Source: an uncultured Candidatus Saccharibacteria bacterium
Lineage (GTDB): Bacteria > Patescibacteriota > Minisyncoccia > Phycocordibacterales > SW-6-46-9
DNA: 64,000 nucleotides
Reading direction: 5' to 3'
Assembly: GCA_964534365.1 (NCBI GenBank)
Contig: CAZHOI010000003.1
Coordinates: 4,310 to 68,309 of the forward strand
Position 1 is the first letter of the stretch, and each line of letters starts with the position of its first letter. A program made the position numbers and the translations under genes. Below the pieces are notes generated by a model. It was not told the DNA's origin, searched no databases, and saw only the letters and a program-made list of their open reading frames with translations. Of the stretch, positions 16,399 to 49,350 are shown in pieces.

Positions 16399-17031
16399 AT
16401 GCAGGACAAGTTCAGGCTCATAAAAACTAACCAAACCTCATTAATAATAAAAGCCGTAGTTTTAGCGACAATTATTGTTGTAATAATTACCATATCAATT
16501 TTTTGGACTAGCAAAATTGACCAACGAAATGATCTGGAGGCCGATTTAGAAACCGAAGCAGAAATAATTAAAGAGAATAATTTGATTATTCCGACCACTG
16601 TGAAAATTGATAAATTGAATTTGGAAGCTACTGTTGGATTACTGGGCCTGGACGAGGATACCGGCGAGCTGCAGGTTCCAGCCGGTTATGACGAAGTTGG
16701 CTGGTATATTTATTCACCAACACCTGGTGAACCAGGTCCTGCCGTTATTTTAGGTCATGTTGATTCATATACCGGTCCCGCCATCTTTTATTCGTTAGGA
16801 CAGCTGGAAAATGGCGATCAAATTGCCGTACAAAATAATATAGGAGAAACCCATATGTTCGAAGTTTACAAACAAACCTATTATGACCAAGACAATTTTG
16901 CGACTGATGAAGTTTATGGCAATACCAGCGGTCCAGAACTGCGTTTAATAACCTGTTCGGGTGAATATGACCGCGAGGCAAAAAGGTATACCGAAAACTT
17001 AGTAATTTATGCCAAAGCAATTTCTGCATAA
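16399..17031 (+). CDS. Sortase (cysteine transpeptidase)
   Basis: N-terminal TM. His motif GHVD. TLXTC motif LRLITCS. Confidence 0.8.
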   Translation: MQDKFRLIKTNQTSLIIKAVVLATIIVVIITISIFWTSKIDQRNDLEADLETEAEIIKENNLIIPTTVKIDKLNLEATVGLLGLDEDTGELQVPAGYDEVGWYIYSPTPGEPGPAVILGHVDSYTGPAIFYSLGQLENGDQIAVQNNIGETHMFEVYKQTYYDQDNFATDEVYGNTSGPELRLITCSGEYDREAKRYTENLVIYAKAISA

Positions 17032-17043
17032 ATTTATATTGGC

Positions 17044-17061
17044 GCCCGGGCACCACACCAA
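17044..17061. repeat. Inverted-repeat partner of the tRNA-Leu(TAA) 3' end (cccgggcaccacaccaacttat)
   Basis: A 22-bp sequence at 17044-17065 is the reverse complement of 17317-17338 (tRNA acceptor 3' + CCA + flank). The pair brackets the GIY-YIG gene. Confidence 0.65.
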
Positions 17062-17062
17062 C

Positions 17063-17317
17063 TTATTCTAACAAGTTACTTATTCGTTTTCGTAGCTGCG
17101 AATAGGCTCGACTTTTTAATTTAAGATTTTGTTCTCGCTTACCCGCATCATCCTCGGCCTTATATGACTCATAGTAGATTAACTCGAGGGGTCTTCGAAG
17201 TTTAGTTGATTTAACTTGTCCAGTAAGGTGTTCATTTAATCGTCGCTTAAGATTATTAGTAGATCCAATATAAGAATTTCCATCCTTAATGCTCTTCAAT
17301 ATGCAAACATAAAACAT
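17063..17317 (-). CDS. GIY-YIG nuclease-domain protein (UPF0213-like)
   Basis: FYVCILKS…SYIGSTNNLKRRLNEHLTG…YYE…REQNLK matches GIY-YIG. Start set at the internal Met, because the longer ORF would overlap the tRNA-Leu gene. Confidence 0.7.
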   Translation of the reverse strand: MFYVCILKSIKDGNSYIGSTNNLKRRLNEHLTGQVKSTKLRRPLELIYYESYKAEDDAGKREQNLKLKSRAYSQLRKRISNLLE

Positions 17318-17326
17318 AAGTTGGTG

Positions 17327-17412
17327 TGGTGCCCGGGGAGGGACTCGAACCCTCACGCCAATATGGCCGGGGATTTTAAGTCCCCTATGTCTACCGATTC
17401 CATCACCCGGGC
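17327..17412 (-). tRNA. tRNA-Leu (anticodon TAA), type II, CCA encoded
   Basis: Reverse complement reads GCCCGGG TG ATGGAATCGGTAGACAT AGGGGA-CTTAAAA-TCCCC, a long variable arm, GAGGGTTCGAGTCCCTC CCCGGGC A CCA. Confidence 0.8.
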
Positions 17413-17498: not shown

Positions 17499-17570
17499 GG
17501 CGCGGTGGCGAAGTGGTAACGCCGGGGACTGCAAATCCTCTATGCCCGAGTTCGATTCTCGGTCGCGCCT
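17499..17570 (+). tRNA. tRNA-Cys (anticodon GCA)
   Basis: Acceptor GGCGCGG/TCGCGCC, anticodon loop CTGCAAA, T-loop GAGTTCGATTCTC. Confidence 0.75.
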
Positions 17571-17630
17571 CTAGTTAATTGATAACCTTTGACAGGAACT
17601 CATCCCTCGGCATAAGGATGAATATCGCGA

Positions 17631-27949: not shown

Positions 27950-27986
27950 TCAGGATCTTGGATTAATTATATAGGGTTATTTTAGA

Positions 27987-28013
27987 AGTCCGACTTCCAA
28001 TGGAAGTCGGACT
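27987..28013 (+). terminator. 12-bp perfect hairpin (agtccgacttcc/ggaagtcggact) after rpmG; no T-tract
   Basis: Seen directly. Function uncertain. Confidence 0.35.
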
Positions 28014-28030
28014 ACTTTACAATGCAATAA

Positions 28031-49157: not shown

Positions 49158-49195
49158 GCGCTGTATTGCTCTACACTCGCTTTCTCCCTCACAAA

Positions 49196-49283
49196 GCGGA
49201 GAGGACAGGATTCGAACCTGCGGTCGGTTTAACCCGACACTACCTTTCCAAGGTAGCGCATTCAACCACTCTGCCACCTCTCC
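49196..49283 (-). tRNA. tRNA-Ser (anticodon GGA), type II
   Basis: Reverse complement reads GGAGAGG TG GCAGAGTGGTTGAATGC, anticodon stem CTACC/GGTAG with loop TTGGAAA, variable arm TGTCGGGTTAAACCGACC, GCAGGTTCGAATCCTGT CCTCTCC G. Confidence 0.75.
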
Positions 49284-49350
49284 GCTTTAATAGGGACTGC
49301 AACTTTCATCTAATTACCAAATAATAGTTCTTGGGAAAATTGGTTGCAAG

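What the first reader, a model, noticed from the sequence alone, without database searches (positions are those of the whole stretch)
17044..17338. GIY-YIG nuclease gene bracketed by 22-bp inverted repeats derived from the tRNA-Leu(TAA) 3' end
The sequence cccgggcaccacaccaacttat at 17044-17065 is the exact reverse complement of 17317-17338, which is the tRNA acceptor 3' arm, CCA and 6 nt of flank. The two copies enclose only the 84-aa GIY-YIG (UPF0213-type) gene. This looks like a minimal mobile or homing-type unit that has captured a tRNA end as its terminal inverted repeat. Alternatively it is a long-range stem that insulates the tRNA.
Basis: seen in the sequence. Interest (0 to 1): 0.55.

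Follow-up and report, generated by a model that had tools for sequence, protein, structure and literature searches.

The report
Selfish GIY-YIG mini-element beside tRNA-Leu
A tiny nuclease gene wrapped in a perfect 22-base inverted repeat sits directly after a leucine tRNA gene, and it belongs to a widespread, apparently undescribed family of small DNA insertions in ultra-small (CPR/Patescibacteria-type) bacteria that carry the same repeat and favour the ends of tRNA and other conserved genes.

Summary
The repeat overlaps the last 11 nt of tRNA-Leu(UAA).

It is not a one-off capture of a tRNA end. In 80 genomes with homologues, 60 of 86 gene copies are bracketed by an inverted repeat. The repeats share a conserved core, (A)CCCCCACACCAAnT, that reaches the start and stop codons. 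Homology between copies in different genomes begins and ends exactly at these repeats. ORF-less hairpins and ~105-nt mini-versions also exist.

24 of 89 copies lie within 150 nt of tRNAs, and 39 of 40 of those tRNAs are on the same strand. In tRNA-adjacent copies the outer arm is replaced by the tRNA end, and a direct copy of that end follows the far arm (window 17040-17050).

One family member gives a clean filled versus empty allele pair at a xerD gene. That pair shows insertion together with a foreign replacement of the gene's 3' end.

Best reading: a selfish, homing-type GIY-YIG mini-element with terminal inverted repeats. Whether the repeat acts as a DNA hairpin or an RNA stem is unresolved. 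No empty allele was found for the window's own locus. The window protein also has Cys in place of the GIY tyrosine.

The parts
17327..17412 (-). tRNA-Leu(UAA) gene with encoded CCA. Its last 11 nt (17327-17337, CCCGGGC-A-CCA) are also the outer part of the proximal repeat arm.
   Evidence: ARAGORN. Rfam tRNA 55.8 bits. Sequence.
17316..17337 (-). Proximal (5') terminal inverted repeat arm, CCCGGGCACCACACCAACTTAT. It consists of the tRNA 3' end, the family core CACCAACTT and the AT of the ATG.
   Evidence: The inner part is identical to the repeat in L027 and the hairpin in L047.
17063..17317 (-). 84-aa GIY-YIG nuclease gene of the UPF0213/SLX1-like type. There is no Shine-Dalgarno sequence or promoter in the 9 nt between the tRNA CCA and the ATG. 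Codon 5 (17303-17305) is TGC (Cys) where the family has a near-invariant Tyr, the GIY tyrosine.
17045..17066 (-). Distal (3') terminal inverted repeat arm, ATAAGTTGGTGTGGTGCCCGGG on the minus strand. It covers the TAA stop codon, and its outer 11 nt are an inverted copy of the tRNA 3' end.
17040..17050 (-). Degenerate direct copy of the tRNA-Leu 3' end (CCCGGGCGCCA versus CCCGGGCACCA, 10 of 11). It overlaps the distal arm by 6 nt and forms the junction palindrome TGGCGCC-CG-GGCACCA (17040-17055, + strand).
   Evidence: sequence; I5. The same architecture occurs with perfect or near-perfect 11-nt copies in L187, L015 and L009.
16399..17031 (+). Convergent class-F-type sortase gene. It marks the outer limit of the insertion, since its stop codon lies 8 nt from the direct copy.
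17499..17571 (+). Divergent tRNA-Cys(GCA). The 86-nt spacer to tRNA-Leu must hold the promoter that would also drive the GIY-YIG gene.

Best explanation
The region 17040-17337 is one copy of a small selfish insertion of about 290 bp. It consists of an SLX1/UPF0213-type GIY-YIG nuclease gene and a roughly 20-nt terminal inverted repeat (TIR) that reaches from outside the gene to its start and stop codons. SHOWN: (i) the family exists; (ii) its TIR has a conserved core; (iii) homology between copies in different genomes stops exactly at the TIR ends; (iv) ORF-less hairpin and ~105-nt mini-derivatives occur; (v) a family member is present in one genome and absent from the same site in a 94%-related genome; (vi) copies are strongly enriched next to tRNA genes and almost always co-oriented with them. 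INFERRED: the nuclease cuts genomic sites that resemble the TIR. Candidate sites are tRNA 3' ends such as ...GGCACCA, tRNA 5' G-runs, the xerD codons for Y-T-H, and RNase P RNA ends. The break would then be repaired by copying an element-bearing allele, as in homing. That process would leave a functional copy of the target's end fused to the proximal TIR and a displaced copy beyond the distal TIR. In the window this put the element immediately after tRNA-Leu(UAA). The tRNA's last 11 nt now double as the outer TIR, an inverted copy sits in the distal arm, and a decaying direct copy follows it. The gene has no promoter or ribosome-binding site of its own, so it is presumably transcribed with the tRNA. 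Pairing between the TIR arms is itself conserved, because non-conserved inner positions stay complementary. It may act as a DNA hairpin or cruciform that a structure-specific SLX1-like nuclease recognises, and/or as an RNA stem that hides the AUG and separates the insert from the flanking RNA. Which of these applies is not resolved.
For: Family and TIR. In those loci 60 of 86 evaluable gene copies have a bracketing inverted repeat, 33 of them perfect, with mean length 20 nt. The consensus is (A)CCCCCACACCAAnT with a sharp outer boundary.
Motif distribution. CCCCCACACC occurs 58 times within 150 nt of GIY ORF ends and 14 times elsewhere in those loci. It occurs 0 times in 632 kb of control loci.
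Discrete units. L012 and L016 come from different MAGs and are 87% identical exactly from TIR to TIR, with unrelated flanks. Two copies on one contig in L038 are 82% identical in the ORF but have 100% identical 20-nt arms. Further pairs appear.
ORF-less derivatives. Hairpins occur in L017, L024, L051, L047 and L009. Minis of ~105 nt occur in L012, L042, L034 and L188, and the two in L188 are 96% identical.
Filled versus empty allele. L199 and L211 share the same synteny and their XerD proteins are 94% identical. L199 carries a ~374-nt insertion made of a foreign xerD 3' end plus TIR-GIY-TIR. The displaced native C-terminus equals the C-terminus of the relatives' XerD.
tRNA association. 24 of 89 copies lie within 150 nt of a tRNA and 20 within 30 nt. 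39 of 40 of those tRNAs are co-oriented with the gene.
Covariation with the tRNA. The outer arm and the flanking direct repeat follow the adjacent tRNA. The sequences are CCCGGGCACCA in the window, CCTTGGTACCA in L187, CCTCGGCACCA in L015 and CCCAGGCACCA in L009, and nine copies at tRNA 5' ends behave the same way.
Conservation relative to flanks. L187 has the element at the same tRNA-Leu(UAA) although the flanking RbfA and IF-2 are only 32% and 37% identical, against 73% for the nuclease.
Protein. Pfam GIY-YIG scores E=1e-15. The best solved relatives are UPF0213 BH0048 and Slx1, with rmsd 2.0 A over 71 residues.
Against: No empty allele could be found for the window's own locus, and the element is identical in all 7 contigs that carry it. 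The window holds one copy and no other TIR motif. Two well-sampled family members, P0108 and P0072, always sit in the same context across 24 contigs each, so there is no sign of frequent recent transposition. There is no fixed-length target duplication. The direct repeats are 7-17 nt at tRNAs and about 66-87 nt at xerD, and canonical copies have none. The 84-aa protein has no DNA-binding domain. Its activity and target are untested. The window copy has Cys instead of the GIY tyrosine. The high conservation of the protein could also reflect a host function. The inverted-plus-direct copy at the distal junction is not explained by any mechanism I can name.
Confidence: 0.6

Rival explanations
1. 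The inverted repeat works mainly at the RNA level. The element is tolerated inside tRNA/rRNA transcription units and operons because its arms form a ~20-bp stem in the transcript. That stem would be cut by RNase III or a similar enzyme, or would simply fold the insert away. This would release the flanking stable RNA and control translation of the nuclease, as with intervening sequences in 23S rRNA. This reading is compatible with mobility but gives the repeat a different job.
For: The predicted fold pairs the two arms across the ORF, with MFE -113 kcal/mol and z = -3.45. Arm length clusters near 20-22 bp. The arms cover the AUG and the stop codon. No Shine-Dalgarno sequence or promoter is present. 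39 of 40 neighbouring tRNAs are co-oriented, as are 52 of 60 upstream and 44 of 56 downstream protein genes. Copies sit in a 16S-tRNA-Ile spacer (L031), and the motif extends the P1 helix of RNase P RNA (L034). GIY-YIG ORFs are reported in non-intron insertions of CPR rRNA genes (PMC11270868).
Against: Mismatches in the arms show no excess of sense-strand G-U pairs (13) over the C-A type (19). The arms are 100% conserved in sequence between copies whose ORFs differ by 13-18%, which points to sequence recognition and not only pairing. In the window, a stem using the tRNA's 3' end would compete with the acceptor stem, which folds first. No RNA data are available.
Confidence: 0.25
2. The gene is a domesticated host nuclease of the UPF0213 family, not a mobile element. 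On this view the repeat is a conserved regulatory or terminator-like palindrome, and the tRNA linkage is ancient synteny.
For: Positions are stable across many samples for P0001, P0108 and P0072. The protein is much better conserved than neighbouring housekeeping genes. The association with tRNA-Leu(UAA) is shared by the three closest homologues: the window, L187 and L190.
Against: A filled/empty allele pair exists, with a foreign replacement of the xerD 3' end. Homology between copies in unrelated contexts ends exactly at the repeats. ORF-less derivatives exist. Insertion sites are very diverse: tRNAs for many amino acids, xerD, a gas-vesicle operon, and an rRNA spacer.
Confidence: 0.1
3. The repeat is a local accident. 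The tRNA 3' end was copied in inverted orientation once in this lineage, for example by template switching at a terminator hairpin, with no relation to the nuclease gene.
For: tRNA genes can be followed by hairpins that include their 3' end. In L161 a terminator stem covers GGGCACCA. Within the window, tRNA-Ser has a leader-trailer extension of its acceptor stem.
Against: The same repeat core brackets the homologous gene in 60 of 86 copies from other genomes, most of them far from any tRNA. The same junction architecture recurs at four different tRNA 3' ends.
Confidence: 0.03

Closest known systems
Free-standing GIY-YIG homing endonuclease genes, e.g. phage T4 SegB in the T4 tRNA gene cluster (PMC2330249)
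   Same: Both are GIY-YIG nuclease genes inserted between or next to tRNA genes. Both show presence/absence polymorphism with transfer of flanking donor sequence (the L199 vs L211 xerD case). Both target conserved sequences.
   Different: Seg and I-TevI enzymes are about 200-250 aa and carry a C-terminal DNA-binding domain. This protein is 84 aa and consists of the catalytic domain only. It scores below the cutoff for TIGR01453 (23.9 vs 56 bits). Structurally it is nearer to Slx1/UPF0213 than to I-TevI. Known homing endonuclease genes are not bounded by conserved terminal inverted repeats and have no ORF-less hairpin derivatives. The family is rare in viral contigs (5 weak hits).
REP / REPIN - RAYT systems (PMC3116915, PMC3337134)
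   Same: In both, a single small nuclease gene is flanked by short palindromic repeats in inverted orientation. Both have ORF-less copies of the repeats as hairpins and as doublets with a spacer. Both are mostly stable and vertically inherited.
   Different: RAYTs are HUH/Y1 transposases, whereas this is a GIY-YIG fold. REPs occur in tens to hundreds of copies per genome. Here only 14 extra motif copies were seen in 368 kb of flanks, and none in the 64-kb window.
Insertion sequences with MITE derivatives
   Same: Both have terminal inverted repeats that overlap the start of the gene, discrete unit boundaries, and miniature ORF-less versions.
   Different: No known prokaryotic IS family uses a GIY-YIG enzyme (my knowledge, and no hit). 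There is no fixed-length target-site duplication. No near-identical multi-copy sets were seen within a genome.
Non-intron insertion sequences with GIY-YIG ORFs in CPR rRNA genes (Tsurumaki et al. 2024, PMC11270868) and RNase III-excised 23S rRNA intervening sequences
   Same: These occur in the same group of organisms. [quoted passage not shown] A terminal stem is a possible processing site.
   Different: That paper does not describe inverted repeats, tRNA association or mini-derivatives (0 occurrences of 'inverted repeat' and 'tRNA'). I did not test whether those ORFs belong to this subfamily.
SLX1 / UPF0213 (COG2827; BH0048 1ZG2, EF2693 1YWL, Slx1 6SEH)
   Same: The fold and motifs match. 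The profile hit to 1ZG2 is E=8e-11. Foldseek gives Slx1 with rmsd 2.0 A over 71 residues at 31% identity.
   Different: SLX1 is a host repair nuclease that works with SLX4 on branched DNA. The bacterial UPF0213 proteins have no assigned function. Neither is known as part of a repeat-bounded insertion.
Integrase-mediated genomic islands at tRNA 3' ends
   Same: Both show a direct repeat of the tRNA 3' end flanking the insertion, with the tRNA kept intact.
   Different: There is no integrase. The insert is only ~290 bp. An additional inverted copy of the tRNA end is present.

Membership tests
GIY-YIG nuclease superfamily (Pfam PF01541) | Domain match above the curated cutoff | tested here: met
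   58.2 bits against a cutoff of 22.6, E=1.1e-15, residues 2-71. AF2 model pLDDT 91.6 with the expected beta-beta-alpha-alpha-beta-alpha topology.
GIY-YIG nuclease superfamily (Pfam PF01541) | Full set of catalytic residues (GIY Tyr, YIG Tyr, Arg, Glu) | tested here: inconclusive
   Y16, R26, H30 and E62 are invariant in the family and present in the window protein. Position 5, the GIY tyrosine, is Tyr in at least 90% of the family but Cys in the window protein. The effect on activity is unknown.
UPF0213 / COG2827 - SLX1-like branch | Closest sequence and structure relatives are UPF0213 proteins and the Slx1 nuclease domain | tested here: met
   1ZG2 at E=8e-11, 1YWL at 1e-7, and Slx1 chains. 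Foldseek ranks 1ZG2 and Slx1 6SEH first, with I-TevI and UvrC far weaker.
GIY-YIG homing endonucleases (I-TevI / Seg type) | Catalytic domain plus a linked DNA-binding domain; family model TIGR01453 | tested here: not met
   The protein is 84 aa in total with no second domain. TIGR01453 scores 23.9 bits against a cutoff of 56.
GIY-YIG homing endonucleases (I-TevI / Seg type) | Presence/absence polymorphism at a conserved target, with donor flank co-transferred | tested here: met
   Met for a family member, L199 (filled) versus L211 (empty), with a foreign xerD 3' end. It could not be tested for the window locus because no close relatives exist.
GIY-YIG homing endonucleases (I-TevI / Seg type) | Site-specific cleavage of the empty target | not testable with these tools
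   This needs an enzyme assay.
Insertion sequence / MITE | Terminal inverted repeats that delimit the unit | tested here: met
Insertion sequence / MITE | Fixed-length target-site duplication | tested here: not met
   Canonical copies have none. Direct repeats are 7-17 nt at tRNAs and about 66-87 nt at xerD.
Insertion sequence / MITE | Transposase of a known class (DDE, DEDD, HUH, Ser, Tyr) | tested here: not met
   The only ORF is a GIY-YIG domain.
Insertion sequence / MITE | ORF-less derivatives with the same ends | tested here: met
   Hairpins and ~105-nt minis.
REP / RAYT | Nuclease gene flanked by inverted palindromic repeats that also occur elsewhere | tested here: met
   58 motif copies lie at gene ends and 14 elsewhere, against 0 in control loci.
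REP / RAYT | HUH (Y1) transposase | tested here: not met
   The protein has a GIY-YIG fold.
REP / RAYT | Tens to hundreds of repeat copies per genome | tested here: inconclusive
   Only about 5-kb flanks were available. The 64-kb window has no extra copy. Whole genomes were not searched.
RNase III-excised intervening sequence | Terminal stem cut out of a stable-RNA transcript | not testable with these tools
   A stem is predicted, and copies lie in tRNA/rRNA units. No RNA data are available.
Integrase-type tRNA-targeting island | Tyrosine or serine integrase plus att direct repeats | tested here: not met
   A direct repeat is present, but there is no integrase in the unit.

The most novel reading that the evidence does not exclude
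This may be a previously undescribed class of prokaryotic mobile element. A stand-alone SLX1-like, structure-specific GIY-YIG nuclease would recognise the hairpin or cruciform formed by its own terminal inverted repeats. It would mobilise both itself and ORF-less mini-hairpins, inserting at the base of stems of stable-RNA genes (tRNA acceptor stems, RNase P P1) and at repeat-like sequences in conserved genes. That would make it a GIY-YIG counterpart of the REP/RAYT system. It would also give the large UPF0213 family, at least in part, a selfish-element function.
Probability: 0.3. Interest if true: 0.8.

Novelty: new variant of a known kind. Interest (0 to 1): 0.62.

Why it matters
If the reading holds, it does four things. 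(1) It adds a nuclease fold (GIY-YIG, SLX1-like) to the short list of enzymes that define prokaryotic repeat-bounded mobile elements. (2) It suggests a function for part of UPF0213/COG2827, a very large family without one; 4,482 clusters at 50% identity match this subfamily profile at E<=1e-10. (3) It explains a recurrent and so far unannotated feature of tRNA and rRNA operons in CPR/Patescibacteria genomes. This matters for annotation, for assembly breaks, and for understanding how such small genomes tolerate insertions in essential RNA genes. (4) It offers a minimal system of ~290 bp and one 84-aa protein for studying how a structure- or sequence-specific nuclease and a hairpin co-evolve. 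For the window itself, the practical message is that the 22-nt repeat is an element boundary and not a feature of the tRNA.

Tried and rejected
- Rfam. Gathering and permissive scans of the region found no family other than tRNA.
- Empty-site test at the window's own locus. The scan with the 28-nt tRNA-Leu 3' end returned 100 loci from many phyla. None carried the insert, but none was orthologous. Sortase homologues reach at most 47% identity, and the best contig is not syntenic.
- Multiple contexts for identical proteins as a sign of recent transposition. P0108, P0072 and P0001 each sit in a single context.
- Sense-strand G-U wobble test for an RNA stem. There is no asymmetry (13 vs 19), so the test is uninformative.
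- Conserved structure in the interior of the ~105-nt minis. Only the terminal stem is shared.
- Fixed target-site duplication or a TA-type target in canonical copies. None was found.
- The idea that a stop codon always abuts the repeat. The data do not support it.
- Phage origin. Only 5 weak hits in 2.9 million viral contigs.
- Literature. Searches covered GIY-YIG with inverted repeat/tRNA/CPR, MITE/REP/RAYT, UPF0213/YhbQ, and the motif sequence itself. Nothing describes this architecture. One search was polluted by author names.
- Integron attC-like cassette reading. I considered and dropped it because there is no integrase and the ORF lies inside the palindrome rather than beside it in most copies.
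Full report
**Observation.** The window contains a perfect 22-nt inverted repeat, CCCGGGCACCACACCAACTTAT, at 17045-17066 (+) and 17316-17337 (-). No shuffle of the window produced any match, and no third copy exists at up to 3 mismatches. It is the only perfect inverted repeat of 16 nt or more within 600 nt in all 64 kb.

tRNA-Leu(UAA) lies on the minus strand at 17327-17412 with an encoded CCA. The proximal arm therefore consists of the acceptor 3' strand + A + CCA (11 nt), a 9-nt spacer and the AT of the start codon. The only gene between the arms is an 84-aa ORF at 17317..17063 on the minus strand. It matches Pfam GIY-YIG at E=1.1e-15. The distal arm covers its TAA stop codon.

Just outside the distal arm lies a degenerate direct copy of the tRNA end: CCCGGGCGCCA on the minus strand at 17040-17050, matching at 10 of 11 positions. 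With the arm it forms a small palindrome (I5). No promoter-like site or Shine-Dalgarno sequence precedes the ATG. As RNA, the two arms are predicted to pair across the ORF.

**The protein.** A profile of 28 homologues hits the solved UPF0213 proteins BH0048 (E=8e-11) and EF2693, then Slx1. An AlphaFold model (pLDDT 91.6) superposes best on BH0048 and on the Slx1 nuclease domain, with rmsd 2.0 A over 71 residues. I-TevI and UvrC match much less well.

The protein is too short for a DNA-binding domain and is below threshold for the group-I-intron endonuclease model. The family keeps Y16, R26, H30 and E62 invariant. The window protein has Cys at position 5, where at least 90% of relatives have the GIY tyrosine. 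The subfamily is large, with 4,482 clusters at 50% identity at E<=1e-10. Named homologues are almost all from Patescibacteria/CPR MAGs, with some from Omnitrophota, Elusimicrobia and others.

**The repeat belongs to the gene family, not to this tRNA.** I fetched 80 genomic loci with homologues of 57-73% identity and analysed all 89 gene copies. Sixty of 86 evaluable copies are bracketed by an inverted repeat. Thirty-three of these are perfect, and the mean length is 20 nt.

The outer half of the repeat has a conserved consensus, (A)CCCCCACACCAAnT, with a sharp outer boundary. The inner half differs from locus to locus and overlaps ATGTTTT and/or the last codons and the stop, yet it stays complementary. 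The inner 18 nt of the window's arm (CCACACCAACTTATGTTT) are identical to the arm of L027, an element that is not near any tRNA.

The 10-mer CCCCCACACC occurs 58 times within 150 nt of GIY ORF ends and 14 times elsewhere in these 368 kb. It does not occur at all in 632 kb of control loci or in the window.

**Discrete, insertable units.**
- L012 and L016 come from two different MAGs and are 87% identical exactly from repeat to repeat. Their flanks are unrelated.
- Two copies on one contig (L038) are 82% identical in the ORF but have identical 20-nt arms. Other such pairs appear. Arms that are better conserved than the ORF argue for sequence recognition as well as pairing.
- ORF-less versions exist. 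Simple hairpins occur in L017, L024, L051 and L047, and in L009 a hairpin sits directly at a tRNA-Phe 3' end with the window's arm sequence.
- Mini-elements of ~103-108 nt have unrelated interiors (L012, L042, L034). Two 96%-identical minis flank the ORF in a gas-vesicle operon (L188).

**Decisive case: a filled versus empty allele.** In L196-L201 the element follows a XerD-like gene. The last ~22 codons of that gene are duplicated right after the distal repeat. The closest XerD relatives, at 94% identity and at 75-88%, end with exactly the displaced version...IYTHITDKQLRDVHKKFHSKK. The element-bearing allele ends with a divergent version...VYTHVTDQQLRKVHQQFHSKNKKS.

Contigs carrying the 94% relative have the same gene order but no GIY-YIG element. 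Aligning the filled allele (L199) with the empty one (L211) shows a ~374-nt insertion. It consists of a foreign copy of the xerD 3' end plus repeat-ORF-repeat. The right junction lies at the native Y-T-H codons, TATACACACAT, which resemble the repeat TTTACCCGCACACT. This is the signature of acquisition by recombination or homing from an element-bearing donor. L072 and L076 show the same target.

**Association with stable-RNA genes.**
- 24 of 89 copies lie within 150 nt of a tRNA, and 20 lie within 30 nt. 39 of 40 of these tRNAs are on the same strand as the gene.
- Copies occur in a 16S-tRNA-Ile spacer (L031). The motif extends the P1 helix of RNase P RNA on both sides (L034). It also encloses a tRNA-Met (L056).
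- In protein-coding contexts the element fills intergenic gaps and is mostly co-oriented with its neighbours: 52 of 60 upstream and 44 of 56 downstream.
- A 2024 study of CPR rRNA insertions noted GIY-YIG ORFs in insertions that are neither group I nor group II introns, often at the top or base of stem-loops. It describes neither repeats nor tRNAs (PMC11270868).

**What is special at tRNAs.** Where a tRNA is adjacent, the outermost 7-11 nt of the repeat are the tRNA's own end. The far arm carries the inverted copy, and a direct copy of the tRNA end follows it.

For tRNA 3' ends, the distal junction reads:

| Locus | Distal junction | Source |
|---|---|---|
| Window | TGGTGCC-CG-GGCGCCA | |
| L187 | TGGTACC-TT-GGTACCA | |
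| L015 | TGGTGCC-TC-GGCACCA | |
| L009 | TGGTGCC-GA-GGCACCG | |

The direct copy is 11 nt long and is perfect in L187 and L015. Nine copies at tRNA 5' ends show the mirror image, with direct repeats of 7-17 nt (for example GGTGAGGGGCCAGTAGC in L075).

L187 is especially informative. It has the same locus type as the window: IF-2, RbfA, tRNA-Cys, tRNA-Leu(UAA), GIY-YIG. RbfA and IF-2 are only 32% and 37% identical, while the nuclease is 73% identical. The repeat and direct copy have followed the different acceptor sequence of its tRNA-Leu. The third-closest homologue (L190) also follows tRNA-Leu(UAA) but has no repeat.

One hundred tRNA-Leu genes from metagenomes share the identical 28-nt 3' end, and none has the insert. 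The insert is therefore not part of this tRNA.

**Interpretation.** The most economical reading is a selfish, homing-type mini-element. Its ends are a conserved inverted repeat and its only product is an SLX1-like GIY-YIG nuclease.

Shown:
- the family exists;
- units are bounded by the repeats;
- ORF-less derivatives occur;
- copies are enriched beside tRNA genes and co-oriented with them;
- one filled/empty pair exists, carrying donor-derived flank sequence.

Inferred:
- the nuclease drives the spread;
- it recognises the repeat or repeat-like targets, since both documented targets resemble the repeat;
- the duplications arise during break repair.

Not resolved: whether pairing of the arms matters as a DNA hairpin or cruciform, which would be attractive given the Slx1-like fold, or as an RNA stem that hides the AUG and isolates the insert in tRNA/rRNA transcripts. 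The mismatch spectrum does not favour sense-strand wobble pairs (13 vs 19). I cannot name a mechanism that yields an inverted plus a direct copy of the target at the distal junction. Template switching across the repeat or hairpin intermediates are guesses.

**Caveats for the window copy.**
- It is single in 64 kb.
- It is identical in all seven contigs that carry it.
- No empty allele is available, because the organism has no close relatives in the databases.
- It carries Cys at the GIY tyrosine.
- Well-sampled family members are positionally stable. The family therefore behaves more like a persistent, mostly vertical element, as REPIN/RAYT systems do, than like an active insertion sequence.

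**Novelty.** I found no description of this architecture in the searchable literature. That library lacks most subscription-journal papers, so prior description cannot be excluded. I rate it a new variant of known kinds (free-standing homing-endonuclease genes, REP/RAYT, IS/MITE), with a 0.3 chance that it is a truly new class of GIY-YIG-driven hairpin element.

Noticed in passing
window 49185-49296: tRNA-Ser(GGA) on the minus strand (49196-49283) is flanked by a 20-nt, 85% complementary inverted repeat that extends its acceptor stem about 11 nt into leader and trailer (I2). This may be a precursor processing stem, or a trace of the same tendency for repeats to grow at tRNA ends.
   Followed up: no
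window 17303-17305 (minus strand, codon 5 of the GIY-YIG gene): The codon is TGC (Cys) where at least 90% of family members have Tyr, the GIY tyrosine. It is one transition away from TAC. The ORF and the repeat are otherwise intact and are identical in 7 contigs.
   Followed up: partly
L034 1892-2245: RNase P RNA (Rfam 242 bits, 1903-2238) is flanked by GGTTTGGTGTGGGGGC and GCCCCCACACCAACC. The element's repeat motif therefore lengthens the P1 helix by about 10 bp. A further ~106-nt mini-element follows immediately.
   Followed up: partly
L188 1392-1876: In a gas-vesicle operon (gvpF/L ... gvpG), the GIY-YIG ORF is flanked by two 96%-identical ~105-nt ORF-less repeat-bounded mini-elements. The whole 485-bp block exactly fills the gap between the gvpF stop codon and the gvpG start codon.
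   Followed up: partly
L036, L039, L041, L058, L065, L077, L079 (Saccharibacteria-labelled MAGs): This is a syntenic sub-lineage in which the arms are in reversed order, rc(X)-ORF-X. A conserved AT-rich stretch, ttattatttatatATG, lies upstream, and several extra motif copies lie nearby.
   Followed up: no
L161 2486-2540: A tRNA-Leu is followed by a terminator-like hairpin whose 22-bp stem includes the tRNA 3' end (GGGCACCAACAAAAAATAC...GTATTTTTTGTTGGTGCCC). This is an ORF-less analogue of the window's arrangement in an unrelated contig.
   Followed up: no
L006 2501-2767 and L078 2078-2332: Here the GIY-YIG ORF runs 9 nt into the downstream tRNA (Pro, Val) and uses the TAG of the tRNA's ...GTAGCTCAG / ...TTAGCTCAG as its stop codon.
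   Followed up: no
L196-L201, 2755-3150: The region just downstream of the xerD-associated element varies between samples of nearly the same organism. Extra 170-aa gene and 200-350-nt insertions come and go, which suggests a rearrangement hot spot next to the element. L205 likewise differs from L202-L204 right after the element.
   Followed up: no
L031 1-2800: Two diverged GIY-YIG genes sit on either side of tRNA-Ile, downstream of the 16S rRNA 3' end and upstream of further tRNAs. They are therefore inside an rRNA/tRNA transcription unit.
   Followed up: partly
window 27984-28016: A near-perfect palindrome with 16-nt arms (94%) separated by 1 nt, AGAAGTCCGACTTCCA / TGGAAGTCGGACTACT (I3).
   Followed up: no
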